Of a DNA stretch of 64,000 bases, positions 779 through 51,965 are shown piece by piece. Location of the stretch: NCBI GenBank assembly GCA_041665085.1, contig JBAYJO010000002.1:83413-147412 (forward strand). Direction: 5' to 3'. Under the pieces are notes generated by a model. The model was not told the DNA's origin, did not search any database, and worked only from the letters and a program-made list of their open reading frames with translations. Each line of letters begins with the position of its first letter. Position 1 is the stretch's first letter. The position numbers and the translations under genes were made by a program. The DNA is from Patescibacteria group bacterium (GTDB taxonomy: Bacteria; Patescibacteriota; UBA1384; JBAYJO01).

Positions 779-2134
779 ATGAAAAAATTAATTTATTCAG
801 GTTTAGCACTAGTAGCGATTATAGGATCGGGTTTACTACTTAGCGGATGCGGATCGACAACTACAACCACGACTCAAACTCCGACTATTTCAATGACAAG
901 ACCAACTGGAGATGAAGATTTTTTTAAAGGAGTTATCGCTGGTTTTAAAGAAAGTAATAGTAGTGCCACTATAAATTACAAAGAAGTTCCATTTGAAGAC
1001 TACGAACTTAACACTCTTAACACGCTGGCTGCTCAAACCGGTCCTGATATTTGGACAATTAGAAATGACTGGGTAAGCAAGCATTACGATAAATTATTGC
1101 CAATACCTGATTCTTTTTTCAAGGTTGATAAAAATGACAAATCAACAGCGGTAGATTATTTTAAGGCAAATTTCGGTGAAAATGTTGCGAATGATGTAAT
1201 TGTAAATAATAAAGTTTATGGCATCCCGCTGGCAATGGACACAATGGTAATTTATTACAACTCAAAGTTAATCAATGAAGCGATTGATGCTTACAATACG
1301 GTTGCCGATGAAAATAAAACTGAAGGAATTGATGGTATTCCTCAAACTTGGGATAGTTTTTTAAATTTTGTACCATACGCAACAAAAAGAGACGGCAGTA
1401 ATATTACCCAAGCCGGTATTGCAATGGGAACGGCAAATAATGTCAATCGAGCAACTGATATTTTATATCTTTTAATGCTTCAAAATGGCGCTCAAATGGT
1501 TTCGCCGGACAATCTAACAGCAACATTTAATTTAGACACAAAAACATCAGCTGGCGGATCAGCCAACCCCGGTCTTTCGGCGCTTGATTTTTATACCAGC
1601 TTTAGCAATAGTTCAAAACCAAATTATTCATGGAATAGCTCAATGCCGGATTCAATCCAGGCATTTGTTGACGGTAAGGTAGCGATGATTTTTGGATATG
1701 GTTATATGGCAAACACAATCAAACAGCTAGCTCCGGATCTTAACTACAAAACTGCAAAAGTACCGCAAATTTCAAAAACAGCAGAGCCGGTTAATTTTGC
1801 CAGCTACTGGGTAGAAACAGTTACCAAAAGCAGCAAAGGAAGTTCTCTGGTTTTTCAATTTTTAAAAAGCTATGCTAATAAAAATACAAGTGCTGATTAC
1901 GCAACCCTAAAAAACTCTTCTAATGCATACATGCAAAATTATGACAAAACAGACGAAAATCCAAAAAATTCTCAACCTGCCAATGTAAAAACATTTAACA
2001 AAGGCAAACAACCGGAAAAATTTGACTCATTAATTGTTGATATGATTTCAAATGCAACAAGTGGAACAAGCCACCAAAAAACACTTGATGAAACAGCAAC
2101 AAAAATTACAAATCTTTTAAGAGAAAAAGAATGA
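779..2134 (+). CDS. lipoprotein, extracellular solute-binding protein family (sugar ABC-type SBP-like)
   Basis: Signal peptide with lipobox LLLSGC, followed by a Thr-rich linker. The overall pattern is SBP_bac_1-like. No permease genes are adjacent. Confidence 0.5.
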   Translation: MKKLIYSGLALVAIIGSGLLLSGCGSTTTTTTQTPTISMTRPTGDEDFFKGVIAGFKESNSSATINYKEVPFEDYELNTLNTLAAQTGPDIWTIRNDWVSKHYDKLLPIPDSFFKVDKNDKSTAVDYFKANFGENVANDVIVNNKVYGIPLAMDTMVIYYNSKLINEAIDAYNTVADENKTEGIDGIPQTWDSFLNFVPYATKRDGSNITQAGIAMGTANNVNRATDILYLLMLQNGAQMVSPDNLTATFNLDTKTSAGGSANPGLSALDFYTSFSNSSKPNYSWNSSMPDSIQAFVDGKVAMIFGYGYMANTIKQLAPDLNYKTAKVPQISKTAEPVNFASYWVETVTKSSKGSSLVFQFLKSYANKNTSADYATLKNSSNAYMQNYDKTDENPKNSQPANVKTFNKGKQPEKFDSLIVDMISNATSGTSHQKTLDETATKITNLLREKE

Positions 2135-2409
2135 TTGGAAAAGTTTTTGCCGCCAATACAATTAATACCCAGTTCGGCAATGTTACAACTGTTCCGGAAT
2201 ACATTGCAGCTATTTACAGCTGGATACTTGGTTTTGGAGTAAGCATTGCAGTTGTCTGGATTATTGTTTCGGGATATATTTTAATGACCAGCCAAGGCAG
2301 TCCGGATGCAGTCAGCAATGCCAAAAAAAATATTATCGAGTCTTTGTCTGGTATTGCCCTTTTATTTTTAGCAAAATTAGTAATCGATAGCATATGGAAA
2401 CCATTTTAA
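2131..2409 (+). CDS. TrbC/VirB2-like T4SS pilin family protein (paralog 1 of 6)
   Basis: ATGA overlap with the upstream stop. Two hydrophobic helices are separated by a conserved loop G-S-P-D...AKK. The second helix starts with I..SLSGI, like its paralogs. Confidence 0.5.
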   Translation: MIGKVFAANTINTQFGNVTTVPEYIAAIYSWILGFGVSIAVVWIIVSGYILMTSQGSPDAVSNAKKNIIESLSGIALLFLAKLVIDSIWKPF

Positions 2410-2729
2410 ATTTTATAAAACTTAGTATTCCCCGAGCAATGGCCAGCGCTGCAACTGAAATTAACATTTCTTCTCCCGGCAAATGGACCACGGCTGAAGC
2501 ACTTATAAATGATATTTTTAGATATTTCACTCTGATCGCGGCATCAACATGTTTTATAATATTTGCAATCGGCGGGCTGCATTACATCTACAGCACAGGG
2601 AGTCCAGATCAAGTAAATAAAGCAAAAGATACAATGATCTGGTCAGCAATCGGATTTTTCGTTTTTGTTGCCGGATACGCAATTGTAAGATTAGTAGGAG
2701 GGTGGTTCGGATATGACAAAATTTTTTAA
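2394..2729 (+). CDS. TrbC/VirB2-like T4SS pilin family protein (paralog 2)
   Basis: Motif TGSPDQVNKAKDTMIWSAIGF lies between two TM helices. It overlaps its neighbours by 16-17 nt. Confidence 0.55.
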   Translation: METILNFIKLSIPRAMASAATEINISSPGKWTTAEALINDIFRYFTLIAASTCFIIFAIGGLHYIYSTGSPDQVNKAKDTMIWSAIGFFVFVAGYAIVRLVGGWFGYDKIF

Positions 2730-3048
2730 AAAAATAGTAAATAAAATTAATCCTAGAAATGTTTTGTATGCCTTGATTATTCCGGAAAGCTGGAAAACCA
2801 GTGCACCGATTAATCTTAGCGATTTAAATGATTTTGTTTCCGGCACAATTGTCGGCCTGGCTTTAAATTTAGCTGGCTTTGTAGCATTATTTTTTGTTTT
2901 TTTAGGTGGGTATATGTGGATAACTTCAAGCGGAGACACCGGAAAAATCGAACAGGGCAAAAAAACTTTAATTTACGCGCTAGCCGGTTTTGTTTTGGTT
3001 CTTGTTTCAGGTTCGCTTGTTAAAATTGTGGTTAATTTATTAACATAA
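2713..3048 (+). CDS. TrbC/VirB2-like T4SS pilin family protein (paralog 3)
   Basis: Motif SSGDTGKIEQGKKTLIYALAGF lies between two TM helices. Confidence 0.55.
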   Translation: MTKFFKKIVNKINPRNVLYALIIPESWKTSAPINLSDLNDFVSGTIVGLALNLAGFVALFFVFLGGYMWITSSGDTGKIEQGKKTLIYALAGFVLVLVSGSLVKIVVNLLT

Positions 3049-3122
3049 CTTTAAAAAAACTGTAAAATAATAATATAGATTGAAAAAAATAAAGGGTCGA
3101 TGAAAATTAAGAAAGGAGAGAT

Positions 3123-3518
3123 ATGAAATTAAGCAAACCGATAAAAATATTATTGACTGTATTGCCACTAATGATTGCTGCTTTAGTAATGTTCACACCT
3201 GTTGGATCATTGGCAGCTATAAGCGAACCTTATAAAGATACGACAAAATTAAATAACGTTGAAAACATTATCAGTTTTATATTAAAAGTTGTGATCACTA
3301 TTGCTGCGGTTGTGGTTTTTGTATTATTTGCTGTTGCCGGCATCACATATGTAACTGGTGCTGGTAATGAAGAACAAACCGGAAAAGCCAAGAAGATGAT
3401 GATTGATGCAGCAATTGGACTTGCAATTACGGTAGCCGCTTATGCACTAGGTAAATACGTTATTGTTCTTATTGTTGGAAAAGACGCAACAAGTAGCATT
3501 TCTAGTGTGACTTTCTAA
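3123..3518 (+). CDS. TrbC/VirB2-like T4SS pilin family protein (paralog 4)
   Basis: SD aaaggagag precedes the ATG. Signal peptide (..GSLAA), then a TM helix, loop GAGNEEQTGKAKKMMIDAAIGL, and a second TM helix. Confidence 0.6.
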   Translation: MKLSKPIKILLTVLPLMIAALVMFTPVGSLAAISEPYKDTTKLNNVENIISFILKVVITIAAVVVFVLFAVAGITYVTGAGNEEQTGKAKKMMIDAAIGLAITVAAYALGKYVIVLIVGKDATSSISSVTF

Positions 3519-3534
3519 AAACAGAGAAAAATAA

Positions 3535-3906
3535 ATGGAAGCCATTTTAAAGATTATTTTGAAATTCAGTGATATTTCTAAAGCTTTTGCTTATGATTTG
3601 AGCAATAACCCGGTTTTAAACACGGTGAATGGTTATGCCACAAATACTCCGAGCTCAATTACAGAATATATAAACAAAGCTTTAGAGATTATCATGATTA
3701 TTGGAACAACAGGTGTCTTTATTATGGCTTCCGTTGGCGCTTTTATCTTTTTAAATAGTGCGGGAGATCCTGAAGTTGCTAAAAAAGGTCAAAACACGAT
3801 GATAAATGCCGGCATAGGATTTGCTTTGCTTGTTGCAACATATGCAATCGTAGTTTGGTATCTGAAAATCACAACCGGCGCCAGTACAATTAATATTAAT
3901 ATTTAG
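3535..3906 (+). CDS. TrbC/VirB2-like T4SS pilin family protein (paralog 5)
   Basis: N-terminus MEAIL.. resembles paralog 2 (METIL..). Motif SAGDPEVAKKGQNTMINAGIGF lies between two TM helices. Confidence 0.55.
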   Translation: MEAILKIILKFSDISKAFAYDLSNNPVLNTVNGYATNTPSSITEYINKALEIIMIIGTTGVFIMASVGAFIFLNSAGDPEVAKKGQNTMINAGIGFALLVATYAIVVWYLKITTGASTININI

Positions 3907-4250
3907 TTGCTGTCATCGCGAAGCGTCCGCGCTGTGGCGATCTACATCCTGTCATCGCGAGGTCATCCGCGGCGATCTATGAAAAGATTGCGGAGCCTGT
4001 CCCGAAGTATTGAGGGATCTCGACTTCTCGTAATGACAAAGTAGAATACATTCGCAATGACAGATGGATCTGACTCCTCGAACGACAGTATTTTATCATT
4101 CCAGACTCGATCCAATATATTCCACCTTGTCATTCCAGACTGAAAGCGAAGCGCTTCAGATCTGGAATCCAGTACTATTTGATTATTATTTACTCTGGAT
4201 CCCAGCCTGCGCTGGGATGACAAAATGAAAAAGCTGGAATGACGGAGAAA
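3907..4250. repeat. Composite array of GC-rich hairpin repeats (GTCATYCCAG..CTGGRATGAC family and the 'tcatcgcgaggtcatccgcggcgatcta' subfamily)
   Basis: Multiple hairpins: 3912-3945, 3951-3980, 4128-4173 (ATTCCAGA..TCTGGAAT with a nested stem) and 4193-4221 (ATCCCAGC-ctgc-GCTGGGAT). The same units recur at 5611, 37217, 41237, 47614, 51217, 57198, 59836 and 62841. Confidence 0.7.
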
Positions 4251-4252
4251 AA

Positions 4253-4621
4253 ATGATGAAAATTTTAAAAAAAATTATTTTGCCAATTTACTCAATTATT
4301 TTTTTGTTTGCATTATTTATTCCAAATACTTCTCATGCATTAATCAAACTTCAAGATCCGATTAAAAATGCTTTCGGCTCATCAAAAGTACATACAACAG
4401 ATGATGCCATAAACATGGTTCTTTCGATTCTATTTTATTTGGGGGCAATTTCTGTTTTTATATATGGAGCGATCGGTGGTATAATGTATTTTTTTGCAGT
4501 TGGAAACCAAGATCAAGCCAAAAAAGCGCAGGCAATGATTTATTACGCAGCAATCGGTTTTGTAATGTTGGTATCTGCTTATGCTCTTGCCGAATGGGCA
4601 ATTAATTATGTGCTAAGTTAA
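4253..4621 (+). CDS. TrbC/VirB2-like T4SS pilin family protein (paralog 6)
   Basis: Signal peptide, then a TM helix, loop VGNQDQAKKAQAMIYYAAIGF, and a second TM helix. Confidence 0.55.
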   Translation: MMKILKKIILPIYSIIFLFALFIPNTSHALIKLQDPIKNAFGSSKVHTTDDAINMVLSILFYLGAISVFIYGAIGGIMYFFAVGNQDQAKKAQAMIYYAAIGFVMLVSAYALAEWAINYVLS

Positions 4622-4644: not shown

Positions 4645-4678
4645 AAGGGCAGCTCGCAAGCGAGCCGCCCTTTGGTAT
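4645..4678. terminator. Bidirectional rho-independent terminator between convergent genes
   Basis: GC stem aagggcagctcg-caag-cgagccgccctt followed by TTT on the plus strand. On the minus strand the same hairpin is followed by T-rich sequence. Confidence 0.5.
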
Positions 4679-4688: not shown

Positions 4689-6482
4689 CTATTCAGCGAC
4701 ATCTTTGATGGGGATAAAGATCATCCCCGCCGCCACATCTGTGGCGGTGCCCGACCAGTAAGCGTACTTACCGATCGGGTAGTTCTGCCCGCCAATCTCG
4801 GGGCTTACCCCATATTGACTGGCGACAGTTGCGTTCTGGTTGAATGCAACCACCTTAACCCGACCGATCAAGCGGCCTAAACTGCCACTCTCAAGGGACG
4901 AGTCTCTATTTGAGTAGACAGCCAGAACCTGCCCGATCTGGGCATTTCGTACTCCACGAAGGAGGACGAAACTGTCGGTTTTGGCCGCTACCGGCACCTG
5001 TTTGGGCAGTCTGCTGTAGGCCTTCTTCAGGCCATCGGCAGCACTGGCCGCCCAGAATCGCCAAGCCTTATCTGTGGTGACCTGTTCGAAGTCACCGCCA
5101 GTGCCAATCGACACCTCGACACCGGGGATGCGCACATTGGTCTCCGATCCGGAGACAACCTCTTCACTGTACCCAGTAGCGCTTACTGGCTCAACCGCCA
5201 GTTCGCGATAACTGGTTGCGGAAACTGTACCCGTCACGCGGGCATAGAATTTCCGCACTCTGCGCGAGCCAGCGGTTTCGATCCTCTCAATACCACCAGC
5301 TATGCCGGATTCGGAATAGCCATCAACACACGATGCATTGACGGTTATTTCGCCGGTGGCGCCGAAGTACTTATCGTATTCCGGACGAGTGGCAGGATCA
5401 ACACCTTCGAGCTCTTGCTCGGCTCTGGCACGATCATATCGCTCATCGCGAGCAACGATCGTTATGCCCGAGCCTTTGAGCCCGTCATTGATCCAACCAG
5501 CCAGCTCGGCTGCTCCGCCGGTGAACTCTCTTCCTTCCATCTGATTGATGACAAGCACCAACCTGACTTCGGGAATTGCGGGTTTCTGTAGGGCAGTTGC
5601 AGAATTGCTCTGGATCCCAGCCTGCGCTGGGATGACAGAAGGGTCGATTGAGACTGTCGGAGGTGCCGGAAGATTAATCTCCGGCGGATTCTCCGTCAGC
5701 CTTTTGTCAAGATGGCCAATCCGATCCACGAAACGTGGGTGATCGGCGGCGATTTCTCCAAGCTTAGAAATCTCGCCCTCGCTCTCACTCAACAGTTTTA
5801 ACGAGCGTGCCATCGCCTTCGGATCACGGCCAGTGACAGCAAGAGATTCAAGACCGAATTGATCGGCCTGAAGCTCCTGCGTTCGGCTATACTTTGCACT
5901 TCTTACCATACTAAGCACGCCGGCCGCAACCTGAATAGTCTGGTTGGCCTCGGTTCCTCCGAGGATAGTGGACAGAAGAACATTGGAAGCCAATGCATCT
6001 GACCACGCTTTCTTAGAGTCGCCGTTTTGGATGTGGCCACATTCGTGGCCAACAACACCGGCAACATCATCCTGCCACCCAAGCGGGTCTTTCGACTTAA
6101 AGAACTCAATCAACCCTTCGGTCACAAAGATGTGTCCGCCTTGCGTGCCTGGCACGCAAAAAGCGTTCAGCACAGCCTTGCTGGCCTCGTCCCTCTGGTC
6201 TACAACCAGAATTTTGGGAACATCGGCCATTTTCTTTGCTTGAGCAATCGACGAAACGACCGCGTCTAGCATCGGATCGGAATTGGTGCGGTATTCACTC
6301 CGCACCTTAAGTGCCATGTCATCGCCGGCTAGGGCGACATTCTTGGCAGTAGGGCGATTTACGATCGCAGTCAGAGCCCCATTTAGGATGGCTCTTTTCC
6401 ACGAGTCGCTGTCTGCGTTTGCCACAGAAGCAAAAACAGACATCACAACTACCAGAGCTACTAGCGAAACAAAGCGTTTCAT
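4689..6482 (-). CDS. Secreted M48-family zinc metallopeptidase (HExxH = HECGH) fused to a C-terminal CsgG/LpoB-like domain; GC-rich foreign gene
   Basis: Signal peptide MKRFVSLVALVVVMSVFASVANA. VVGHECGHIQNGD is an M48 signature. The C-terminal half (LVLVINQMEGREFTGGAAELAGWINDGL...IVARDERYDRARAEQELEG) resembles CsgG-like lipoprotein domains. GC is about 57% against about 33% in surrounding DNA. A strong SD (aggagagg) lies upstream. Hairpin repeat 5611-5637 sits in-frame at the domain junction. Confidence 0.6.
   Translation of the reverse strand: MKRFVSLVALVVVMSVFASVANADSDSWKRAILNGALTAIVNRPTAKNVALAGDDMALKVRSEYRTNSDPMLDAVVSSIAQAKKMADVPKILVVDQRDEASKAVLNAFCVPGTQGGHIFVTEGLIEFFKSKDPLGWQDDVAGVVGHECGHIQNGDSKKAWSDALASNVLLSTILGGTEANQTIQVAAGVLSMVRSAKYSRTQELQADQFGLESLAVTGRDPKAMARSLKLLSESEGEISKLGEIAADHPRFVDRIGHLDKRLTENPPEINLPAPPTVSIDPSVIPAQAGIQSNSATALQKPAIPEVRLVLVINQMEGREFTGGAAELAGWINDGLKGSGITIVARDERYDRARAEQELEGVDPATRPEYDKYFGATGEITVNASCVDGYSESGIAGGIERIETAGSRRVRKFYARVTGTVSATSYRELAVEPVSATGYSEEVVSGSETNVRIPGVEVSIGTGGDFEQVTTDKAWRFWAASAADGLKKAYSRLPKQVPVAAKTDSFVLLRGVRNAQIGQVLAVYSNRDSSLESGSLGRLIGRVKVVAFNQNATVASQYGVSPEIGGQNYPIGKYAYWSGTATDVAAGMIFIPIKDVAE
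5611..5637. repeat. Hairpin repeat copy (ATCCCAGC-ctgc-GCTGGGAT) embedded in-frame within the CDS
   Basis: Identical to the units at 4193-4221 and 37217-37245. It encodes VIPAQAGIQ in the linker between the M48 and CsgG-like domains. Confidence 0.7.
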
Positions 6483-6661: not shown

Positions 6662-8113
6662 TTATTTTTTTATTTTATAGATCACGGCCAAGTCATCGCT
6701 GTAGATTTCTTGCCAATTGGAATTATTTTTAAGATATTCAACCAATTTATCATCTCTATCTTTATTTAATAGAAATAAATTAATATTATACTTTTTAATT
6801 AAATCTTCTCTTTTGTCAGCTTTTTTAACAATCGCACCATACCCGTCTCTGGCAAAATAATTATTTTTTTCAAACCAAGCTGACATCCGTCCATCAATAA
6901 ACACTTTTTCTTCCGGTAAATAATAAATTAAATATCCGCCCCAACCATAATTGTTAAATATTCTGTCATCTTGCATGCGATTTTGCCTGATAAAATCTAC
7001 CGCCTTATTTGGAAAGACAAAATTCATAGATGAAGCAAAAGATACCAACAGGAGAAAAATTATAATTTGAGCGAAAACCACCCATATAATTATTCTTTTT
7101 TTAAAGTTTTCAACAATACTAAATCCGGGCGATTCACTAAATTTATCCCATGCCAGCATTAAAATATATGGCGATAAAACTAAAAAAATCGGGGCAAATT
7201 TTTGCACTATAAGAGATAAGAAGGAGATGTAGACAACTGACGCCCATTCAAAAGGCAGTTTTTTAAAAACAACGATTGATAAAGACAAAACAATGACATA
7301 AGGAAAAACAAAGATAAATTCAGACTGGGGAAGCCATTCGCCAATTCCAGCAAGCGGGGACATAAAAGTATAAAAAACTTCGCGGAAAAGGTGGATTCCG
7401 TAAGGATTTATCAAAGTTGCAAGAAAAGAAAGTAGAAAAAATAAGCTAAATATAAATTTTTCTTTATTATTAAAAACCGAGTAATAGATATATTTTTTAA
7501 GAAAAAATTTTCCTTGGAATATTTTAATAAAAACCAGATAGAAAAAAATTGCCAAACCTACAAAAAACCCACCGTGTAAATTTGCCCAGAGAACGAAAAT
7601 AAATGGAATTGGAATTAAATAACGAATTTTCTTGAATTTGATATATCTGATTAGCAGGCTAAAAACAAGGGCTGTATTAAAAAAAGTAAAAGTTTGAGGT
7701 CTAAATCCCCAGAGATAAAGATTCAGATAAAGCGCCATAAAAATTATGAAACGCCAATATTTTTTAATATGTTTTTTCTCAAGAGGGATTAAAACGGCAG
7801 AAGTAGCTAAAATTGAGCTTAAAAGAACTAAAAACCAATGACCAATATGATTTTGTACCTCATACATAAAAACACCTGAAAGCCACTCATGAAAAACCCA
7901 AGGATATGACGACATGGTATATGACCAAATATCCGCGTGAGGTATAGTGTGATTTTGAACAATCCACTCCCCTCCTTTGACGATCCAAAAAAAATCTGTT
8001 TCTACCCTGTTAAAATTCGTGATAAATAAAGTAAGAGTTAGAACAAAAAATAACCCGATCACAAATAGGTTATTTTTTAATTTACTCTGTTTATTCACTA
8101 ATAACCCTTTCAA
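6662..8113 (-). CDS. Polytopic integral membrane protein, putative ArnT/PMT-like (GT39/GT83-type) glycosyltransferase
   Basis: About 12 predicted TM segments and a very hydrophobic composition. Its start overlaps the pilB stop by 23 nt. Confidence 0.35.
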   Translation of the reverse strand: MKGLLVNKQSKLKNNLFVIGLFFVLTLTLFITNFNRVETDFFWIVKGGEWIVQNHTIPHADIWSYTMSSYPWVFHEWLSGVFMYEVQNHIGHWFLVLLSSILATSAVLIPLEKKHIKKYWRFIIFMALYLNLYLWGFRPQTFTFFNTALVFSLLIRYIKFKKIRYLIPIPFIFVLWANLHGGFFVGLAIFFYLVFIKIFQGKFFLKKYIYYSVFNNKEKFIFSLFFLLSFLATLINPYGIHLFREVFYTFMSPLAGIGEWLPQSEFIFVFPYVIVLSLSIVVFKKLPFEWASVVYISFLSLIVQKFAPIFLVLSPYILMLAWDKFSESPGFSIVENFKKRIIIWVVFAQIIIFLLLVSFASSMNFVFPNKAVDFIRQNRMQDDRIFNNYGWGGYLIYYLPEEKVFIDGRMSAWFEKNNYFARDGYGAIVKKADKREDLIKKYNINLFLLNKDRDDKLVEYLKNNSNWQEIYSDDLAVIYKIKK

Positions 8114-9963: not shown

Positions 9964-10416
9964 TTAACTTTGAACCTTAATAATAATTTTGCGATCTTGA
10001 CCCTCGCCGGTCGATTCACTTGTAATACCATCAATTGGCTGGCAAAGAGTGTGAACTATTTTTCTTTCCGAGGGATTTAAAGATTCAAATTCAACATTTT
10101 TTTGATCTTTTTTAATTTGAGTTACTGCTTTTTTAACCATATCTTCAAGCATACTTTTTCGTTTGTTTTTATAATCTGCAACATCAAGATTGATATAAAC
10201 AAAGTCCTCTTGGTTTTTATTGGCAAGTAGACGAACAACATGCTCTAAAGCATATAGATTTTGACCATTATAGCCGATCATTAAAGATGGGTCACTGCTT
10301 ATGATATTTATTTTAACTCCATCTCCTTCTTCAAGCACCATTACTTCAGCATTGTATTTAAGAAGATCTATAATATCTTTGGTAATTTGTTTGATGTCTT
10401 TAATTTTATTTTGCAT
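9964..10416 (-). CDS. jag: KH/R3H-domain RNA-binding protein Jag (KhpB)
   Basis: Conserved position after yidC. A KH-like region followed by an R3H-like C-terminus. The internal ATG (MQNKIK..) was chosen because the longer ORF overlaps yidC by 53 nt. Confidence 0.6.
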   Translation of the reverse strand: MQNKIKDIKQITKDIIDLLKYNAEVMVLEEGDGVKINIISSDPSLMIGYNGQNLYALEHVVRLLANKNQEDFVYINLDVADYKNKRKSMLEDMVKKAVTQIKKDQKNVEFESLNPSERKIVHTLCQPIDGITSESTGEGQDRKIIIKVQS

Positions 10417-10423
10417 TTTTCCT

Positions 10424-11167: not shown

Positions 11168-11171
11168 ATAA

Positions 11172-11408
11172 TTATTTTAAAGGGTCGTTTCCACCACTTT
11201 GGAAAGGATTGCAACGACTGATTCTCTTGACTCCTAAATATGATCCCTTAATTACTCCGTATTTATTAATTGCTTGGTAAGTATATTCTGAACAGGTCGG
11301 GTGGAAACGGCATACTCCATGTTTGTAAAGATGTCTTAATGGGCCGTGATCCAACGATAAGGTGTGTTGATATAAACGAATTAGAAATAAAGCGATTTTT
11401 TTAAACAT
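11172..11408 (-). CDS. yidD: Membrane protein insertion efficiency factor YidD
   Basis: Motif [22 protein letters not shown]. Confidence 0.8.
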
Positions 11409-25995: not shown

Positions 25996-27042
25996 TTAAT
26001 TGAATTTATAAAGATAATTATTTGAAAGAAAATAAATCAAATTATTGCTGTCCAGCAGGATAGTGGTTGGATCTAAATTTTCTCCTATAAATTGTTTTTG
26101 TTCAATTGTGTTGGTCTTGGTGTCGGCGATAAATATATTATCCTCTGAAGTGACCTTATTATTTAAGCTATAATAAAGTTTATCGCTAATTAGATTAAAT
26201 TTATCTAGATTTTGGTTGTTTGTAATATTGTTGATTTTAAAGATTGATCCGTCGGTTGTATTGATTATTTCAAAAATATTATTATCTTCTTTTTTATACT
26301 GAATCAATATTTTTTGTTCTGACGGGTATATTTTTTCAGTTATAAAAACATTTTCATAAAGAATATCCTTTTTTTTACTTTTCAGGTTTAATCTTACAAA
26401 GTCAACTAACATATCTTCTTTGACGTTTTCACAATAAATATCTTGAGTATCGGGGTTGTAATATTTGAATTCATCACAATTTTCCGGGTCGCTGATTTTT
26501 TGAAAGTTAGTTCCGTCCCAATCAGATTGGTTAATAGATACTTTACTAACATCTAAATATTCATAAATTAATTTATCGTCTGACCAGTAAGGATCGAAAA
26601 TATTTTCATTTAATTTACTAAGCTTTTCCTGTTCTAAATTGTAAGTATAAAAAATTTCAAGATTATTTATCTGATCAGTAGTGTTCATTAAAATGAGTTT
26701 TTTGTCATTTGACCAACTAACATAATTAATATAAGGAACATCTATAGGATAATTCTTAATGGTTGTTTTGTCTTTTAAAGAATATTTAATAATTGCTTGT
26801 TCCTTTCCAGCGATATATAATAGTTCCGAATTTTCATTTATAGTGGGAAAAAATATAGTATCATTTAAAATTTGTTTAGCATTTGTAGTTTTTGTTGAAT
26901 TAGTATTATTGTTATTTTTGTTTTTATTTAGAAGTAAAAACATAATTAAAAGTCCAAAAAATAAGATTATGATTGTGATAATTAATATTATTTTTTTTCG
27001 ATTATTTAACATGTTTTCCTTTCTATTAAGGGCAGACAGCAC
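25996..27042 (-). CDS. N-terminally anchored beta-propeller-like protein (hypothetical)
   Basis: TM helix, an Asn/Thr-rich linker, and a repetitive beta-rich region. Overlaps the upstream gene by 17 nt. Confidence 0.45.
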   Translation of the reverse strand: MLSALNRKENMLNNRKKIILIITIIILFFGLLIMFLLLNKNKNNNNTNSTKTTNAKQILNDTIFFPTINENSELLYIAGKEQAIIKYSLKDKTTIKNYPIDVPYINYVSWSNDKKLILMNTTDQINNLEIFYTYNLEQEKLSKLNENIFDPYWSDDKLIYEYLDVSKVSINQSDWDGTNFQKISDPENCDEFKYYNPDTQDIYCENVKEDMLVDFVRLNLKSKKKDILYENVFITEKIYPSEQKILIQYKKEDNNIFEIINTTDGSIFKINNITNNQNLDKFNLISDKLYYSLNNKVTSEDNIFIADTKTNTIEQKQFIGENLDPTTILLDSNNLIYFLSNNYLYKFN

Positions 27043-28207
27043 CTTTGCTTTTTAAATAATAAATATGACTACCAAGAAAAGCAGAAGGATTTAATAAAGA
27101 TGCAATTGGGTAGATTGGATTGCGATTCATGGGATCAGCTAAAATAAAATTTGTATTATCCGGACTAACTCCTATTATTAGCACTCTATGCGCGCTACTT
27201 GTAAACGATTTTCTTCCTGGAATGTTGGCTGTTGTGTTTGCTCCAATGACTACTGGGATTTGTTGGTTTAAATAACATTTTATTTTTTCTAGTGTCGGCG
27301 GGCGTTTAGCAGAACCAAGTGGTACATATTTTATTTTTCCAGACAATTCTGTTGGTGTTGAGGTTGGAAGTCCCCATGACATATTATTGCCTCCCGGTGT
27401 GTATAAATCCCAAACTGTATCAGGAATAATGATTTGTTTCTGCATGGCATAATTTACTGCCATGCAAACCGAAGTGACAGCGCATCCAACTCTTCGAACC
27501 AAAGGATTGCTTGCCTCTGTTTGATATAGTCTGTAAGGATTAAAATTAGCAAGGCTTCCAGCAATAATATTTTCGATTTCATAGAAATATTGGTATGCTT
27601 CTATTACTCTCCCAACATAAGGCCTTGTTTCTTTGAATGTTTGGCCAACAGACCATGGTTTGCCCGAATTGTATCTTGAGGCTGCATCGCGTAATTTATC
27701 TAAATCAGTTGTATTTCCACCCGCACCATTCATAGCGCATAGATGTGCGGCAGCGAAGGCCGAATCCCAGATATTTTGTATTTCCATTCGTCCATCACCG
27801 TTACCATCTTGTTTGTGACCTTCCCATGTTATTGGCATAAATTGAAATGGTCCGCTTGCTCCGACTGTAGATGATGCCCAAGGTCCTGTAATGTCCGGCC
27901 AAGGAATACTTGGATTAAAATGAAAATCTGAATGGCCTCCTCCATGTTCCCCACCCATGAACATCGCGGCAATAAAAGCAGGTTGTACTTTCCATTTTTC
28001 TCCTGCTGCTGAAAACACTTTCGCATATTCTTCAGGAATATTTTTGAGTCCACCCTCGGCAAACATCTCAGCGGTTTTGCCGGGATTGTCGCTTTGGTTT
28101 CCGGCAAATAGGCCAAGAGCAAACATTGCTCCGATTGCAACAAAAACTACAACAATAATTATAATTACAATTTGAATAAATCCTTGATTTTTCTTTTCGC
28201 TTTTCAT
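27026..28207 (-). CDS. Bifunctional cell-wall hydrolase: lytic transglycosylase (SLT) domain plus C-terminal CHAP/C39-like cysteine peptidase domain (VirB1/PrgK/TcpG-like)
   Basis: N-terminal TM helix. SLT motif GASGPFQFMPITW. C-terminal RVGCAVTSVCMAVNY ... HRVLIIGV suggests a Cys/His peptidase. Located immediately downstream of VirB4. Confidence 0.55.
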   Translation of the reverse strand: MKSEKKNQGFIQIVIIIIVVVFVAIGAMFALGLFAGNQSDNPGKTAEMFAEGGLKNIPEEYAKVFSAAGEKWKVQPAFIAAMFMGGEHGGGHSDFHFNPSIPWPDITGPWASSTVGASGPFQFMPITWEGHKQDGNGDGRMEIQNIWDSAFAAAHLCAMNGAGGNTTDLDKLRDAASRYNSGKPWSVGQTFKETRPYVGRVIEAYQYFYEIENIIAGSLANFNPYRLYQTEASNPLVRRVGCAVTSVCMAVNYAMQKQIIIPDTVWDLYTPGGNNMSWGLPTSTPTELSGKIKYVPLGSAKRPPTLEKIKCYLNQQIPVVIGANTTANIPGRKSFTSSAHRVLIIGVSPDNTNFILADPMNRNPIYPIASLLNPSAFLGSHIYYLKSKGAVCP

Positions 28208-30066
28208 GAGCTTGATGATGTTGTTGACTGCGAGGCGAGTTCTCTTGCCGCTAGGATTTCTTTTGGATCGGTGGTAATAAGTTGATCTTCAGTGTATGAC
28301 GCGATCATTTTAATGGCAACATGATTCATGCCGGCAAAGAAAATACCCTCTCCTACTCCTGATTCAAGGAGAAGCATTTTTTCACCCTCGGTTAGATTGA
28401 ATACTTCAACGACTTTATCAATTGCTGAAGTGGATTGCTTAAGAAGGATCTGCATTGCCGCATTAGAGATAACACTTCTACCGTATTTTGAATCCAAAAA
28501 ATCTTCAACATCTTGACTGATAATACTGACTCCAAGATAATATTTTCTTGCTCTTTTAACGAGCGAGTAAAGGAATTTTGCCGAGTCTTCATATTGCATC
28601 ATCCACCATGCCTCATCAATAATTAGCAGTCTTCTTTTTAATTTAAATCTGATTTGACTCCAAATGTAAGTTAAAATCATATACATTCCAATTGGACGAA
28701 GTTCATCTTCAAGATCTCGAACCGAGAAACAAACGAATTTATTGCTTAAATCAAAATTGGTTGGTTTGGTAAATAGTCCGGCAAAACTTCCTTCGGTGTA
28801 TTTTTGCAATTTCTTAACCATATTTTCTGCGCCGTTCATATTGGTTAAAATGCTTTGAAGATCTGTTATTAATGGTGCGGGGTTTTTTTGACTTTCCGGG
28901 TCGATGGTAATATCTTTTAAGGCATAAGTTTCATATAAAGCCTTATCCATAATGCCGTCTTCTTCAGGTGTTAATCCTTGCAACATCAAACCAAGAAGGC
29001 CATGTAAGGTTGCGATAGTTGTTCTTAAGTTGTCTTCACCTGATTCACCATCCATAACTGCCGGAAGATCAAACGGGTTAATTCTGGTATCAGAGTTAAG
29101 TGAAAGGTTTAGATAACTTCCACCAACTGCTTCGCAAAGTTGTTTGTATTCATTTTCAGGGTCGATAATAATTACATCAGTATCAAGCATCAGATATCTG
29201 ACAGCTTCGAGCTTGATTGTGTAAGATTTACCGGCACCGGTAGTAGCGAAAATTACAGAGTTAGCGTTTTCTAAATTAAATCTATCAAATAAGACCAGTG
29301 AATTATTATGTCTGTTTAGTCCGTATAATATTCCTTCATTTGAGGTTAAAGTGGCGGAAGTGAATGGGAATGTGGTTGAAAGCGATCCCGTATCAAGATT
29401 TCTAGCTACATTTAATTGATCATGGAAAAGTGGAAGAGTAGCGGTAAAGCCTTGTTCCATCTGAAGAAGAGCCTGTTTTGTATAAATCAGCATTCCGCCA
29501 AGGGTTGATTCAAGCTGTTTTGAAACAGTATCAAGATCTTTGACCGAATCGGCATAAATTGTAAAATAAAGGGCAAATTGGAAAAGTCTGACCTCTCCTC
29601 TTTGCAGGACATCTCGCAATTCTTCAATATCTGAAATTGCGGTTTGGAGTTCAGGGTCTCGGATAATTCCTTTTTCCCGTTGGATTGATTCAGTTGATTC
29701 CAGCTGTGTAGCTTTTCTTCTTAAATTATTCATAACTTCATTAGATTTCAAAGGCATAATATTCATAGCGATATCTAAAGTTACATCGAAATCAATAATT
29801 GGTGAGATCCAATTAGTTTGAATGTAGCGCGGATAAGTGAAAACAAATAATGTGCGAGCAAATTTGTTGCCTATTTGAACATAATTTGGCTTGACCATAA
29901 AAGCAGCTGGAGCAATAAGATCAAGTACATTACTTAAACCTTGTTTGAATGTCATTTCCAGATTGCTGTTTGCTATTCCCGCGGCTTTATTTTCTTGTTT
30001 GGTGGGAGCAGGACTTTGCGGGGCAGTATTATTTTTATTTTCTATAGGATTATTTTGTGGTGGCAT
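28204..30066 (-). CDS. virB4: VirB4/TrbE/CagE-family T4SS ATPase, ATPase portion (C-terminal 620 aa of a split VirB4)
   Basis: Walker A ATTGAGKSYT, Walker B LLIIDEAW, and an FVFTYPRY region. Own SD GGAAGGAGAAA directly before the ATG. Confidence 0.75.
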   Translation of the reverse strand: MPPQNNPIENKNNTAPQSPAPTKQENKAAGIANSNLEMTFKQGLSNVLDLIAPAAFMVKPNYVQIGNKFARTLFVFTYPRYIQTNWISPIIDFDVTLDIAMNIMPLKSNEVMNNLRRKATQLESTESIQREKGIIRDPELQTAISDIEELRDVLQRGEVRLFQFALYFTIYADSVKDLDTVSKQLESTLGGMLIYTKQALLQMEQGFTATLPLFHDQLNVARNLDTGSLSTTFPFTSATLTSNEGILYGLNRHNNSLVLFDRFNLENANSVIFATTGAGKSYTIKLEAVRYLMLDTDVIIIDPENEYKQLCEAVGGSYLNLSLNSDTRINPFDLPAVMDGESGEDNLRTTIATLHGLLGLMLQGLTPEEDGIMDKALYETYALKDITIDPESQKNPAPLITDLQSILTNMNGAENMVKKLQKYTEGSFAGLFTKPTNFDLSNKFVCFSVRDLEDELRPIGMYMILTYIWSQIRFKLKRRLLIIDEAWWMMQYEDSAKFLYSLVKRARKYYLGVSIISQDVEDFLDSKYGRSVISNAAMQILLKQSTSAIDKVVEVFNLTEGEKMLLLESGVGEGIFFAGMNHVAIKMIASYTEDQLITTDPKEILAARELASQSTTSSSS

Positions 30067-30748
30067 TTTCTCCTTCCTTGGTTGAGATTAATGCACTTTC
30101 TAAAACATTAACATCAGCTAATTTTTCTTCTGATGATTCTTCAGGGTTATAAATTTCATAAAATAATTCAACTAATTCTTGGGTTGATAACATTGCAGCC
30201 CGAAGTCCAAGACTGGCAAGTCCGGAGACGATCACACCTGTTCTTTCTGTTATTAGGGATTTGTATTGCAACAGTTGTTTTTCATCAATATTAATAGTTT
30301 GCTGCGATTTGTTTCCAAAAAGACCTGAAAATAAACCTCCGCCCGGTTTATTTAAGACCGGTGGCGAGTAAGGGACAACGACGAAAAATTGTTTATCCAT
30401 AATGTTTGCGATATTGATCAGTCTTTGAACATATTCAATATAATCAGCGATCTGGATACTCATAAGTTCATTTTCTTCAGCTTCTAACTTTTTCTTTAAT
30501 TGATTGATATAAGGTGTCAAATCGAGTTTTTTTGACCTGACAATAATTTGGATAGGAAATTCAAGAGAGTTTAAAAAACCTTGATAGGAAAAGATTAAGG
30601 CATTTTGTTCTCGCTCTGATTTTAATGCAAAGTTGACCGAGCTTACCAAAAGAACAGCACGAAAATCACCTGTTTTTAAAATGACTAATTCGTCGCGAAT
30701 CTCGGCGATGTCAAGATGTTGTTGTGTGCTGGACTGTTTCTGTGCCAA
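30050..30748 (-). CDS. VirB4 N-terminal domain protein (CagE_TrbE_VirB-like), separate ORF
   Basis: DIAEIRDELVILKTGDFRAVLLVSSVNFALKSEREQNALIFSYQGFLNSLEFPIQIIV matches the VirB4/TraC N-terminal consensus. Its TAA stop lies 14 nt after the ATG of the ATPase ORF. Confidence 0.6.
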   Translation of the reverse strand: MAQKQSSTQQHLDIAEIRDELVILKTGDFRAVLLVSSVNFALKSEREQNALIFSYQGFLNSLEFPIQIIVRSKKLDLTPYINQLKKKLEAEENELMSIQIADYIEYVQRLINIANIMDKQFFVVVPYSPPVLNKPGGGLFSGLFGNKSQQTINIDEKQLLQYKSLITERTGVIVSGLASLGLRAAMLSTQELVELFYEIYNPEESSEEKLADVNVLESALISTKEGENATTK

Positions 30749-31436
30749 GATTTCCTCCAGTTAAATTATTTGGCGCAATTGGTTGGTTATTTATTGGTGT
30801 TTGCCCGGTAGGCGGGGCTTGATTTGGTAGAGGAGTAGAAGCTGTTGGTTTGGCTGATTTCATATTGGATATATCTGTTATTGGTGCAGGGGCTGACATT
30901 GTTTGTAATTCTTTTGCCTGTTTCATTTGTTCGACTTGCATTGATTCAGTTGTGTGAGGGGTTTCAACTTTTTCGAGTGATTTCCATCCCCCGCTGTCTA
31001 ATGTCTGTGCTAATTTCTGCAATTCGGATTTGCTAATTTTCTTTTTAGGTAAAGTTGGTTCAACGCGTTTTTCCTTGTGAGGAAGAATTATAGCTTCTTG
31101 CATTGAACCTTTTTGCCATACTCTTTCGCGCGGCTTGGTAATAAATGAAATTAAAGCAAGAATAAAATGTGAAAATGGTTGATCTTGAGGTTTGTAGAAA
31201 GTAAAAGCCAAGATAAGAATTGCTGTTGGTAATCCGGTCGCAATAAAAAGAGGCATTGGTAAAGTCGTTAGGAGAATATAGATAATAGAGCCTCCGATTG
31301 CAACAAAAATAAATTGCTTCAGCGTAAGAGGTCCGACAATTTTATCCTCCATATCTATGTTTTGCGGTACTCGGTATTGCACTTCCCTCCTTAGAGAATG
31401 TTTGGCTCTGCGTCTTGTCAGCAGACCTATTGTCAT
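30711..31436 (-). CDS. VirB3/PrgI-like small membrane protein with Pro/Gln-rich C-terminal tail (start uncertain)
   Basis: Two TM helices (FIFVAIGGSIIYILLTTLPMPLFIATGLPTAILILAFTF) directly upstream of VirB4. Alternative starts: GTG after SD AAGGAGG (about 31382) or ATG at 31352. Confidence 0.4.
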   Translation of the reverse strand: MTIGLLTRRRAKHSLRREVQYRVPQNIDMEDKIVGPLTLKQFIFVAIGGSIIYILLTTLPMPLFIATGLPTAILILAFTFYKPQDQPFSHFILALISFITKPRERVWQKGSMQEAIILPHKEKRVEPTLPKKKISKSELQKLAQTLDSGGWKSLEKVETPHTTESMQVEQMKQAKELQTMSAPAPITDISNMKSAKPTASTPLPNQAPPTGQTPINNQPIAPNNLTGGNLGTETVQHTTTS

Positions 31437-51407: not shown

Positions 51408-51965
51408 CTAGTACTCTGATTTAAAATGTTCAACAAGACCTATTTTTTCAATTGGCCAAATTCGTAGATATGCGCGGCCAACAATATTTTTTCTTGGAAC
51501 AGTACCCCATTTTCTAGAGTCGGACGATACACCTCTATTGTCTCCCATCACAAAATACTGATCTTGCGCAATTGTAACATCAACATAATCATTTTGTTCT
51601 AAGTATAAAGGTAGATAATCTTCAGTGTATTTTTTTCCATCAATAAATACATTTTTTCCAGTAATTTTGATATGTTCACCGGGTAGGCCGACAATTCTTT
51701 TGATAAATTTCTTCTTTGTTGGTTGCCCGGGGAATTTTAAACCTATAACATCGCCTCTTTGAGGAATTCCAAAAGTGTAACGAGTTCGGTCCACAATTAC
51801 CAATTCACCATCTTTGTAGTTCGGTTCCATGCTCGTTCCCCTGACGATTAAAAATGTGGCAAAAAAATAATTAATAATAATTAATATTGCAGCAAAAAAA
51901 ATAACACCTTTGATTAATTCATAAAGGCATCCGCTGTATAGAAATAGTTTTTTAACAGATTCTAT
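51408..51965 (-). CDS. lepB: Signal peptidase I (S26), 5'-extended relative to the ORF track; no canonical start codon in frame
   Basis: The tracked ORF (51408..51830) starts after the catalytic Ser box. The frame stays open upstream, encoding a TM anchor (VIFFAAILIIINYFFATFLIV) plus RGTSMEP. This corresponds to the conserved SPase I Ser motif (SGSMxPT). An upstream in-frame TAA lies at 51975-51977. No ATG, GTG or TTG lies between that stop and the motif. SD aggagg is followed by ATA at 51965. Confidence 0.55.
   Translation of the reverse strand: MESVKKLFLYSGCLYELIKGVIFFAAILIIINYFFATFLIVRGTSMEPNYKDGELVIVDRTRYTFGIPQRGDVIGLKFPGQPTKKKFIKRIVGLPGEHIKITGKNVFIDGKKYTEDYLPLYLEQNDYVDVTIAQDQYFVMGDNRGVSSDSRKWGTVPRKNIVGRAYLRIWPIEKIGLVEHFKSEY

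What the first reader, a model, noticed from the sequence alone, without database searches (positions are those of the whole stretch)
2131..4621. Array of six tandem, overlapping TrbC/VirB2-like pilin paralogs
Six small proteins of 92-131 aa share a helix-loop-helix architecture. The conserved loop has the form G(S/A)G(D/N)P..AK(K)....I..A.IGF. Starts overlap or are coupled to the preceding stop. Paralogs 2 and 5 share an MExIL N-terminus without a signal peptide, whereas paralogs 4 and 6 have cleavable signal peptides. Six diverged pilin paralogs in a row suggests antigenic, functional or host-range diversification of a T4SS-type filament. The array lies 12 kb from the T4SS operon, on the other side of the origin.
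Basis: partly seen in the sequence, partly recalled or inferred. Interest (0 to 1): 0.65.

Follow-up and report, generated by a model that had tools for sequence, protein, structure and literature searches.

The report
Six-gene VirB2-like pilin array, Patescibacteria
This is a real row of six small, diverged pilin-like membrane proteins in an ultra-small (Patescibacteria/CPR) bacterium, a gene arrangement already described in hundreds of such genomes, and here it always follows a sugar-binding-type lipoprotein gene rather than sitting beside the secretion machine.

Summary
Six co-oriented ORFs (2131-4621, 92-131 aa) all score above the Pfam gathering threshold for PF18895 T4SS_pilin. Each has two hydrophobic helices joined by a short polar, Lys-rich loop, and AlphaFold models of two of them are helical hairpins.

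The window comes from a Patescibacteria MAG and spans the replication origin. A monoderm-type T4SS (VirB4, PrgI/VirB3, VirB1-like hydrolase) lies 21-24 kb away across dnaA, not 12 kb.

This kind of array is already published:
- McLean 2018 first noted it.
- Wang 2023 described six essential pilins in Southlakia epibionticum.
- Quiñonero-Coronel 2025 counted 441 arrays of 2-11 genes at about 25% identity.

It is therefore a new member of a known kind.

What this analysis adds:
- A related species carries the same six genes as positional orthologs (44-68% identity on the diagonal, 20-39% off it). The paralogs are old and each is retained, which argues against simple antigenic variation.
- Paralogs 4-6 belong to a "GNEE-loop" clade that expanded separately in different lineages.
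- In 10 of 10 related loci the array directly follows an orphan MalE-like SBP lipoprotein gene. I did not find this linkage in the literature I searched.

Relatedness to classical VirB2/TrbC remains weak.

The parts
779..2134 (+). Orphan MalE-like solute-binding-protein lipoprotein (lipobox LLSGC, Thr-rich linker). Its stop overlaps the start of pilin 1 (ATGA). It is the conserved first gene of the pilin operon.
   Evidence: SBP_bac_8 in the precomputed Pfam hits. Weak hits to maltose/sugar SBPs in the PDB. An ortholog lies directly upstream of PF18895 arrays in L004, L008, L011, L012, L013 and L024-L028.
2131..2409 (+). Pilin paralog 1 (92 aa). No signal peptide. Helices at residues 21-53 and 58-89.
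   Evidence: PF18895 36.3 bits. AF2 pLDDT 86. Ortholog in L004 at 58% identity.
2394..2729 (+). Pilin paralog 2 (111 aa). Non-hydrophobic leader METIL...RAMA|S. Its start is dual-coded with the C-terminus of paralog 1.
   Evidence: PF18895 45.5 bits. The overlap sequence is identical in L004. Ortholog at 44% identity.
2713..3048 (+). Pilin paralog 3 (111 aa). Basic, non-hydrophobic leader.
   Evidence: PF18895 37.9 bits and TrbC 17.9 bits, the latter sub-threshold. Ortholog at 55.5% identity.
3040..3068 (+). Promoter-like site (TTAACA-17-TAAAAT) in the gap before paralog 4. This is a consensus match only.
3123..3518 (+). Pilin paralog 4 (131 aa). Classical signal peptide, AAGGAG ribosome-binding site and canonical GAGNEEQTGKAKKMMIDA loop. 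Candidate major subunit.
   Evidence: PF18895 26.7 bits. AF2 pLDDT 78 with helices 46-78 and 83-128. It is the most conserved ortholog, at 68% identity. The loop is invariant in five orthologs.
3535..3906 (+). Pilin paralog 5 (123 aa). Degenerate, truncated signal peptide MEAIL...KAFA|Y.
   Evidence: PF18895 34.6 bits. The leader aligns with the canonical signal peptide of the L004 ortholog.
3907..4252 (.). GC-rich (46%) spacer made of short hairpin repeats. It is an insertion relative to L004, where paralogs 5 and 6 overlap.
   Evidence: Stable hairpins at 4132-4168 (z -4.2) and 4199-4218 (z -3.1).
4253..4621 (+). Pilin paralog 6 (122 aa). Classical signal peptide ...TSHA|L.
   Evidence: PF18895 27.3 bits. 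Ortholog at 53% identity.
4645..4672 (.). GC-rich hairpin followed by UUUGG, lying between the convergent pilin 6 and M48 genes. Terminator-like.
   Evidence: z -3.2.
4689..6482 (-). Secreted M48 metalloprotease, convergent with the array. Conserved neighbour in L004, L008, L010 and L011. Whether it is functionally linked to the array is unknown.
27026..28207 (-). VirB1-like cell-wall hydrolase (SLT plus C39-like domains) of the T4SS cluster.
28204..30066 (-). VirB4-type ATPase, the presumed assembly motor.
   Evidence: TraG P-loop, CagE_TrbE_VirB, AAA_10.
30711..31436 (-). PrgI/VirB3-like protein.
   Evidence: PF12666 47 bits.
51408..51830 (-). Signal peptidase I (S26). Candidate enzyme for leader removal; this role is inferred.

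Best explanation
The six genes encode VirB2-like "T4SS_pilin" subunits of the Patescibacteria-type, monoderm (MPF-FATA-like) type IV secretion system. That system is encoded on the same chromosome, 21-24 kb away across oriC.

Proposed mechanism, with the basis of each step marked:
- Each protein is a membrane hairpin: a short outside N-tail, helix 1, a Lys-rich cytoplasmic loop, helix 2, and a short outside C-tail. This is shown by hydropathy and by AF2 models.
- The proteins insert into the membrane and their leaders are removed at (A/S/V/L)-x-A sites by signal peptidase I. This is inferred.
- The VirB4/VirB3/VirB6-like machine pulls them from the membrane pool to build a surface filament or conduit used in the epibiotic interaction with a host cell. 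This is inferred by analogy and from essentiality in Southlakia.
- The six are not interchangeable variants but a fixed, co-expressed set. Paralog 4, of the GNEE-loop type, is the likely major subunit. Paralogs 1-3, which lack a classical signal peptide and are translationally coupled to each other and to an upstream SBP-like lipoprotein gene, are likely minor or initiating components.
- The SBP lipoprotein is probably part of the same module.
For: Family, fold and partner machinery:
- All six score above the PF18895 gathering threshold.
- Hairpin architecture is supported by hydropathy and two AF2 models.
- VirB4, PrgI/VirB3 and a VirB1-like hydrolase are in the same window.
- Several homologs also carry PF04956 TrbC hits. 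Paralogs 1 and 3 have sub-threshold TrbC hits. hhalign to real VirB2/TrbC is in register across helix-loop-helix (E 2.7e-4, probability 42%).

Literature:
- VirB2-like pilins were found in 1,948 VirB4-containing Patescibacteria assemblies, with 441 arrays of 2-11 genes at about 25% identity (PMC12102498).
- Six PF18895 genes, SEML1_0014-0019, are all essential and sit next to the T4SS in Southlakia (PMC10633639).
- T4SS pilins are among the most highly expressed unknown genes in Patescibacteria enrichment cultures (PMC10936435).

Non-redundancy and operon structure:
- Positional orthology with L004 is 44-68% on the diagonal and 20-39% off it.
- Gene starts overlap.
- The SBP gene lies directly upstream in 10 of 10 loci.
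- Paralog 4 has the strongest Shine-Dalgarno sequence, the highest conservation and an invariant loop.
Against: - No T4SS-dependent pilus has been seen in any Patescibacterium; the review says only "potential to elaborate conjugative pili" (PMC12857230).
- Here, and in 10 related loci, the array is not next to virB4. It is instead tied to an SBP gene and often lies near a PilB-type ATPase.
- Similarity to solved conjugative pilins is not detectable by sequence or by Foldseek.
- PF04956 is below threshold.
- Four of the six lack a classical signal peptide, so export and processing are uncertain.
- The major and minor subunit assignment is inference only.
Confidence: 0.7

Rival explanations
1. 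Antigenic or host-range variation. Under this view the paralogs are alternative major pilins that diversify the exposed surface of one filament, as proposed for Bartonella Trw trwL copies and Anaplasma virB2 paralogs.
For: - The GNEE-type members (paralogs 4-6) form lineage-specific expansions in different genomes: L008_3-7, L013_3-8 and W_4-6.
- The N-terminal, presumably exposed, part is the least conserved between orthologs: 40% identity against 62-64% in the helices.
- Two of the three SNPs between two strains over 5.6 kb are nonsynonymous changes in paralog 1.
- The 2025 survey raises this idea.
Against: - Paralogs are only 20-35% identical to one another, and each has a positional ortholog in another species. 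This means old, stable copies rather than rapid turnover.
- All are co-oriented, with overlapping or short-gap starts. There are no silent cassettes and no inverted-repeat switch. The repeats in the 5/6 spacer are a dispersed element also found elsewhere in the window.
- All six members are essential in Southlakia.
Confidence: 0.15
2. These are not pilus subunits. They are small two-helix membrane proteins that work with the upstream SBP lipoprotein, for example as a ligand-capture or uptake device or a membrane scaffold, and their relation to the VirB4 machine is historical only.
For: - The SBP-array linkage is seen in 10 of 10 loci, with no virB4 within 6-10 kb.
- No ABC permease or ATPase gene was found in the parts of the window that were annotated.
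- Structural matches are only to generic membrane hairpins such as ATP synthase subunit c.
- No Patescibacterial T4SS pilus has been observed.
Against: - In Southlakia the six-gene array abuts the T4SS and no SBP_bac_1/8 protein is annotated, so the SBP is dispensable for the family.
- Genome-wide co-occurrence with VirB4 is reported.
- The profile relation to TrbC/VirB2 is weak but consistent.
- Some array members elsewhere carry large extracellular domains, as expected for filament-displayed adhesins.
Confidence: 0.12
3. Artefact: spurious ORFs, or a chimeric assembly around the high-GC neighbouring gene.
For: The adjacent M48 gene has 54.5% GC in a genome of 36% GC, and one assembly breaks inside the 5/6 spacer.
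Against: - The same arrangement, including M48, is present in three independent assemblies and in the related species L004.
- All six ORFs have significant profile hits and orthologs.
Confidence: 0.01

Closest known systems
Patescibacteria VirB2-like pilin arrays (Southlakia epibionticum ML1 SEML1_0014-0019; the TM7x "Sec-secreted array"; 441 arrays surveyed in PMC12102498)
   Same: - Tandem PF18895 genes: six here and six in ML1.
- About 25% identity within an array.
- A Patescibacterial genome with a monoderm-type VirB4/PrgI T4SS close to oriC.
- Hsp20 and ComF-like genes nearby.
   Different: - Here the array is 21-24 kb from virB4, on the other replichore, whereas in ML1 it is adjacent and divergent.
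- Here it follows an SBP lipoprotein gene that ML1 lacks.
- Only two of the six have classical signal peptides. McLean described all members of the TM7 arrays as having signal peptides.
Classical conjugative pilins VirB2 (Ti plasmid), TrbC (RP4) and TraA (F): Pfam PF04956 and relatives
   Same: - Small size.
- A leader followed by two hydrophobic helices with a short basic loop.
- A VirB4-containing system in the same genome.
- In-register profile alignment.
   Different: - Below the PF04956 threshold.
- The loop is about 7 residues longer and acidic-basic (GNEEQTGKAKK).
- The organism is a monoderm.
- The genes are not in the virB operon.
- There are six paralogs instead of one.
- No match to solved pilins.
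Bartonella Trw (tandem trwL) and Anaplasma virB2 paralog families
   Same: Several tandem VirB2-type genes in an organism that depends on contact with host cells.
   Different: Those copies are recent, similar duplicates thought to vary surface properties. Here the copies are old, highly diverged and retained position by position.
Mycoplasma ICE "Mbov_0395 family pilin-like conjugal transfer protein" (NCBIfam NF045849)
   Same: All six match nearly the full 80-residue profile (E 4e-8 to 8e-6). This is a pilin-like protein of a wall-less monoderm MPF-FATA-type element.
   Different: Scores of 25-33 bits are below the cutoff of 40, and that family is single copy within an ICE. I found no literature on it.
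Type IV pilus (T4P) pilins
   Same: The name, the small size, and a PilB-type ATPase gene 3.5 kb away.
   Different: These proteins have no class III G|FxxxE leader and no single N-terminal helix with a globular head. They are a different family.

Membership tests
Pfam PF18895 T4SS_pilin | Whole-protein HMM score at or above the gathering cutoff of 26.6 bits | tested here: met
   Scores are 36.3, 45.5, 37.9, 26.7, 34.6 and 27.3 bits. Paralogs 4 and 6 are marginal but have clear orthologs and family-wide alignments.
Patescibacteria VirB2-like pilin array (PMC12102498) | Two or more PF18895/PF04956 genes in tandem, or separated by one gene | tested here: met
   Six in a row on the + strand. There is no other copy in the window.
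Patescibacteria VirB2-like pilin array (PMC12102498) | Low identity within the array (mean about 25%, maximum 54%) | tested here: met
   20-35% pairwise identity.
Patescibacteria VirB2-like pilin array (PMC12102498) | Host genome is Patescibacteria and carries a monoderm-type VirB4 | tested here: met
   NCBI names the proteins as from a "Patescibacteria group bacterium". VirB4, PrgI and a VirB1-like gene lie at 27026-31436.
Patescibacteria VirB2-like pilin array (PMC12102498) | Pilin genes near virB4 (true for 1135 of 1948 assemblies, so frequent but not defining) | tested here: not met
   The array ends at 4621 and virB4 is at 28204-30066, with dnaA in between.
TrbC/VirB2 conjugative pilin (Pfam PF04956) | HMM score at or above the gathering cutoff of 27.9 bits | tested here: not met
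   17.1 and 17.9 bits for paralogs 1 and 3, and no hit for the other four.
TrbC/VirB2 conjugative pilin (Pfam PF04956) | Remote homology to bona fide VirB2/TrbC by profile-profile comparison | tested here: inconclusive
   hhalign of A2 against eight annotated VirB2/TrbC sequences gives probability 41.8% and E 2.7e-4 over 65 columns in register. Some family members carry both Pfam hits.
TrbC/VirB2 conjugative pilin (Pfam PF04956) | Two hydrophobic helices forming a hairpin with a short basic loop | tested here: met
   Hydropathy for all six. AF2 models for paralog 4 (pLDDT 78) and paralog 1 (pLDDT 86).
TrbC/VirB2 conjugative pilin (Pfam PF04956) | Structural match to solved T4SS pilins | tested here: inconclusive
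TrbC/VirB2 conjugative pilin (Pfam PF04956) | Leader peptide removed by signal peptidase; some members are cyclised | not testable with these tools
   An (A/S/V/L)-x-A motif lies ahead of the mature N-terminus in all six, read directly from the sequence. An S26 signal peptidase gene is at 51408-51830. There are no processing data.
TrbC/VirB2 conjugative pilin (Pfam PF04956) | Polymerises into a VirB4-dependent extracellular pilus | not testable with these tools
   This needs microscopy or biochemistry. It has not yet been shown for any Patescibacterium.
NCBIfam NF045849 Mbov_0395 pilin-like conjugal transfer protein | HMM score at or above the cutoff of 40 bits | tested here: not met
   25.4-32.8 bits for all six, covering nearly the whole profile.
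Type IV pilus (T4P) pilin | Class III leader with G|F-x-x-x-E and a single N-terminal hydrophobic helix | tested here: not met
   No such motif is present in any of the six sequences, and each has two hydrophobic helices.
Antigenic-variation pilin families (Bartonella trwL type) | Recent, similar tandem duplicates with lineage-specific turnover | tested here: not met
   All six have positional orthologs in L004. Only the broader GNEE clade shows lineage-specific expansion.

The most novel reading that the evidence does not exclude
The pilin array is the core of a widely conserved operon made of an SBP lipoprotein gene followed by the pilin array. This operon is physically uncoupled from virB4 in many Patescibacteria.

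Under this reading, a MalE-like binding lipoprotein is an unrecognised accessory of the Patescibacterial pilus. It could act as a tip or base adhesin, an assembly factor, or a device that captures host-derived ligands. Alternatively, the "pilins" and the SBP together form a host-nutrient acquisition apparatus that is not a conventional T4SS pilus.
Probability: 0.2. Interest if true: 0.7.

Novelty: new member of a known kind. Interest (0 to 1): 0.33.

Why it matters
Patescibacteria make up a large share of uncultured bacterial diversity and live attached to other cells. In the one genetically tractable species, the T4SS and its pilin array are essential for that lifestyle, yet nobody knows what structure the pilins build. 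Monoderm T4SSs were thought to lack pili.

This locus does not change that picture, but it sharpens it in three ways:
- The six paralogs behave as a fixed, ancient set rather than as variable copies.
- One loop type (GNEE) marks the probable major subunit and the part of the array that expands.
- A sugar-binding-type lipoprotein gene is a constant operon partner in many lineages.

The third point is a concrete, testable lead about how the filament is assembled or what it binds.

Tried and rejected
1. A sequence profile search of the PDB with the family alignment found no pilin.
3. I looked for extra pilin genes near virB4 or elsewhere in the window and found none, even at E up to 10.
4. I considered that the high-GC M48 gene signals a chimeric assembly. 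This is rejected because the junctions are identical in independent assemblies and the gene is syntenic in L004, L008 and L011.
5. I considered that the shared "MExIL" start of paralogs 2 and 5 reflects gene conversion.
   - The identity is confined to 17 nt.
   - The leader of paralog 5 aligns along its length with the classical signal peptide of its L004 ortholog, so it is better read as a truncated, degenerate signal peptide.
   - The start of paralog 2 is constrained by dual coding with the "WKPF*" end of paralog 1, and that sequence is identical in L004.
6. dN/dS was not attempted. Orthologs are 44-68% identical, so synonymous sites are saturated, and the near-identical strain differs by only 3 SNPs.
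7. T4P pilin identity was rejected on leader and architecture.
8. Pfam at E up to 1 on the unannotated T4SS-neighbour ORFs gave nothing useful.
9. Literature searches for the SBP-pilin linkage and for the Mycoplasma Mbov_0395 family found nothing.

Full report
**What is there.** The region 2131-4621 holds six + strand ORFs of 92, 111, 111, 131, 123 and 122 aa.
- All six score above the gathering threshold of Pfam PF18895 "T4SS_pilin". The scores are 36.3, 45.5, 37.9, 26.7, 34.6 and 27.3 bits against a cutoff of 26.6.
- TrbC/VirB2 (PF04956) reaches only 17-18 bits, and only for paralogs 1 and 3.
- The paralogs are 20-35% identical to each other, with just two invariant glycines.
- Hydropathy shows two hydrophobic segments of 23-36 residues separated by a 7-12 residue polar, Lys-rich loop in every paralog. 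Only paralogs 4 and 6 have an additional N-terminal hydrophobic segment, i.e. a classical signal peptide.
- AlphaFold2 models are helical hairpins. Paralog 4 has pLDDT 78 and helices 46-78 and 83-128. Paralog 1 has pLDDT 86 and helices 21-53 and 58-89.
- An HMM built from the six finds no further copy in the 64 kb.

**Gene spacing.**
- The upstream lipoprotein gene (779-2134) ends in ATGA, overlapping the start of paralog 1.
- Paralogs 1/2 and 2/3 overlap by 16 and 17 nt.
- The 3/4 gap is 74 nt and contains a promoter-like match and an AAGGAG ribosome-binding site.
- The 4/5 gap is 16 nt.
- The 5/6 gap is a 346-nt GC-rich spacer.
- A GC-rich hairpin follows paralog 6.

**Is it real?** Yes. The same DNA occurs in three independent assemblies at 99.9-100% identity. 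NCBI holds the proteins as WCW17_01270-01295 of a "Patescibacteria group bacterium" MAG. A related species (L004) has the same six genes in the same order.

**Genomic setting.**
- The window spans the replication origin. jag, yidC and rnpA are at 9964-11751 on the - strand, and dnaA, dnaN and recF are at 12057-15826 on the + strand.
- Recognisable T4SS genes are a VirB1-like hydrolase (27026-28207), VirB4 (28204-30066) and PrgI/VirB3 (30711-31436).
- The T4SS is therefore 21-24 kb from the array, across the origin.
- A PilB-type ATPase, of the type IV pilus or T2SS kind, lies 3.5 kb away.
- An S26 signal peptidase gene is at 51408-51830.

**Comparison with what is published.** This kind of array is known.
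- McLean et al. (bioRxiv 10.1101/258137) reported arrays of 4-6 small secreted proteins with VirB2-like affinity in Saccharibacteria.
- Wang et al. 2023 (PMC10633639) found six PF18895 genes, SEML1_0014-0019, next to the T4SS of Southlakia epibionticum. All were scored essential by Tn-seq.
- Quiñonero-Coronel et al. 2025 (PMC12102498) found VirB2-like pilins in 1,948 VirB4-containing assemblies, near virB4 in 1,135 of them. They counted 441 arrays of 2-11 genes with a mean identity of 25%.
- T4SS pilins are among the most highly expressed unknown genes in Patescibacteria enrichment cultures (PMC10936435).

The present locus fits all of these descriptions and is a new member of a known kind.

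**Addition 1: positional orthology.** Against L004, each paralog is most similar to the gene at the same position. Diagonal identities are 58, 44, 55.5, 68, 50 and 53%, against 20-39% off the diagonal. The duplications therefore predate the split of the two species, and every copy has been kept. Neighbouring proteins are 43-74% identical in the same comparison, so the pilins evolve at ordinary to fast rates. Paralog 4 is the slowest.

**Addition 2: two array types.** In a crude neighbour-joining tree of array members from seven further loci, paralogs 1-3 group with the first members of other arrays. Paralogs 4-6 belong to a clade marked by the loop YLTGAGNEE(Q/A)TGKAKK(M/L)(M/L)IDA. That clade has expanded separately in different lineages, for example L008_3-7 and L013_3-8. 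This loop is invariant in five paralog-4 orthologs. Between orthologs, the leader plus N-tail is the least conserved part (40% against 62-64% in the helices).

**Addition 3: linkage to an SBP lipoprotein gene.** The gene directly upstream is an orphan MalE-like solute-binding lipoprotein. It has the lipobox LLSGC and weak matches to sugar-binding proteins.
- Loci found through the pilin show the order NTP-transferase, SBP, array of 6-8 pilins, often followed by an M48 peptidase and a PilB-type ATPase. This holds in Berkelbacteria-, Saccharibacteria- and unclassified Patescibacteria-labelled MAGs.
- In an independent test I started from SBP homologs of 32-38% identity, chosen only for contig length. 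Five of five are immediately followed by 5-7 PF18895 genes on the same strand.
- None of these ten loci has virB4 within the 6-10 kb examined.
- Southlakia ML1 has no such SBP annotated, so the linkage is common but not universal.
- I found no mention of it in the main text of the 2025 survey or through full-text searches.

**Leaders.** All six have an (A/S/V/L)-x-A motif 7-32 residues from the N-terminus and 17-25 residues before helix 1, read directly from the sequence. This would suit signal peptidase I.
- The "METIL" start of paralog 2 lies in sequence that also encodes the C-terminus of paralog 1 (WKPF*). That sequence is identical in L004.
- The "MEAIL" leader of paralog 5 aligns with the classical signal peptide of its L004 ortholog. 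It is best read as a shortened, degenerate signal peptide.
- The resemblance between the two starts is limited to 17 nt, and I do not interpret it as gene conversion.

**Relation to classical pilins.** The evidence is weak but consistent.
- PF04956 gives sub-threshold hits.
- Several homologs carry both Pfam domains.
- hhalign against eight annotated VirB2/TrbC proteins gives 42% probability and E 2.7e-4, in register over 65 columns.
- All six also match the NCBIfam model for a Mycoplasma ICE "pilin-like conjugal transfer protein" at 25-33 bits, below its cutoff of 40. This is a lead that pilin-like proteins may exist in other monoderm MPF-FATA systems.
- Neither sequence nor Foldseek links the models to solved pilins. 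A two-helix hairpin is too simple for that test to be informative.

**Interpretation.** The best reading (confidence about 0.7) is a co-expressed, non-redundant set of VirB2-like subunits serving the chromosomal monoderm-type T4SS. Paralog 4 is the likely major subunit, paralogs 1-3 are minor or initiating components, and the SBP lipoprotein is a probable accessory.
- Shown: family membership, fold, operon layout, orthology, synteny, and the presence of VirB4, VirB3 and VirB1 genes.
- Inferred: leader processing, filament formation, VirB4 dependence, and subunit roles.

Rival readings:
- Antigenic or host-range variation (about 0.15) is disfavoured by positional orthology, operon structure and the essentiality of all six members in Southlakia.
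- A T4SS-independent SBP-associated membrane device (about 0.12) cannot be excluded.
- Artefact is excluded.

**Verdict.** This is a correct observation of an already described kind of locus. It has modest added value from the orthology analysis and the SBP linkage.

Noticed in passing
window 4689-6482 (-): The secreted M48 metalloprotease gene has 54.5% GC and GC3 of 0.57, while its neighbours have GC3 of 0.25-0.29. Its orthologs next to the pilin array in L004 and L008 are also GC-richer than their surroundings (GC3 0.38 vs 0.29, and 0.66 vs 0.42). This could be an old horizontal acquisition or a gene-specific compositional bias. It remains unexplained.
   Followed up: partly
window 4193-4225, 5608-5637, 37217-37249; weaker copies near 47621, 51218-51343, 57200-57261, 59824, 62841: A dispersed family of short GC-rich hairpin repeats (CTCTGGATCCCAGCCTGCGCTGGGATGACA). 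Several units make up the 346-nt spacer between pilins 5 and 6, which is absent in L004. One copy lies in frame inside the M48 gene, where it reads VIPAQAGIQ. Strain L003 lacks 50 nt there and its M48 gene is split in two. One assembly (L002) breaks inside the spacer.
   Followed up: partly
window 47777-48343 (-) and 52497-52949 (+): Two further small high-GC genes (51-52% GC) with no Pfam match sit in this 36% GC genome. The first has a signal peptide.
   Followed up: no
L015 9803-20215; L014 2065-3180; also L024 7403-8590, L026 7846-10529, L025 7330-8256, L028 7313-9420: The T4SS_pilin domain occurs at the N-terminus of much longer proteins, from 250 to more than 3400 aa. Some are array members. 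These may be pilin-anchored surface or adhesin domains.
   Followed up: partly
window 2278 and 2290: Two of the three SNPs between the window and strain L003 over 5.6 kb are nonsynonymous changes in pilin 1 (I50L and S54G), at the end of helix 1. The numbers are too small to interpret.
   Followed up: partly
window 2391-2410; L004 9229-9248: The overlap between pilins 1 and 2 is dual-coding. The ...IWKPF* end of pilin 1 and the METIL start of pilin 2 share the sequence ATATGGAAACCATTTTAAAT, which is identical in the related species even though the proteins are only 44-58% identical.
   Followed up: yes
window 6662-9623 (-): A PilB-type T2SS/T4P ATPase gene overlaps by 23 nt with a 483-aa polytopic membrane protein gene that has no family match. 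A PilB-type ATPase lies downstream of the pilin array in L004, L008, L013 and L026, and on the opposite strand in L025.
   Followed up: partly
window 16218-24981 (-): A 2107-aa protein with no Pfam match is followed by a weakly M23-like 424-aa protein and a PEGA/WD40-like 383-aa protein. They lie between recF and the T4SS block and may be giant surface proteins.
   Followed up: no
all six pilins: All six give consistent sub-threshold matches (25-33 bits, cutoff 40) to NCBIfam NF045849, a pilin-like conjugal transfer protein of Mycoplasma ICEs. This bears on the published statement that monoderm MPF-FATA systems lack VirB2-like pilins.
   Followed up: partly
L027 3219-3608; L028 3972-4391: A lipoprotein signal peptidase (Peptidase_A8) gene lies a few genes upstream of the SBP-pilin operon in two loci. 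This may be coincidental.
   Followed up: no
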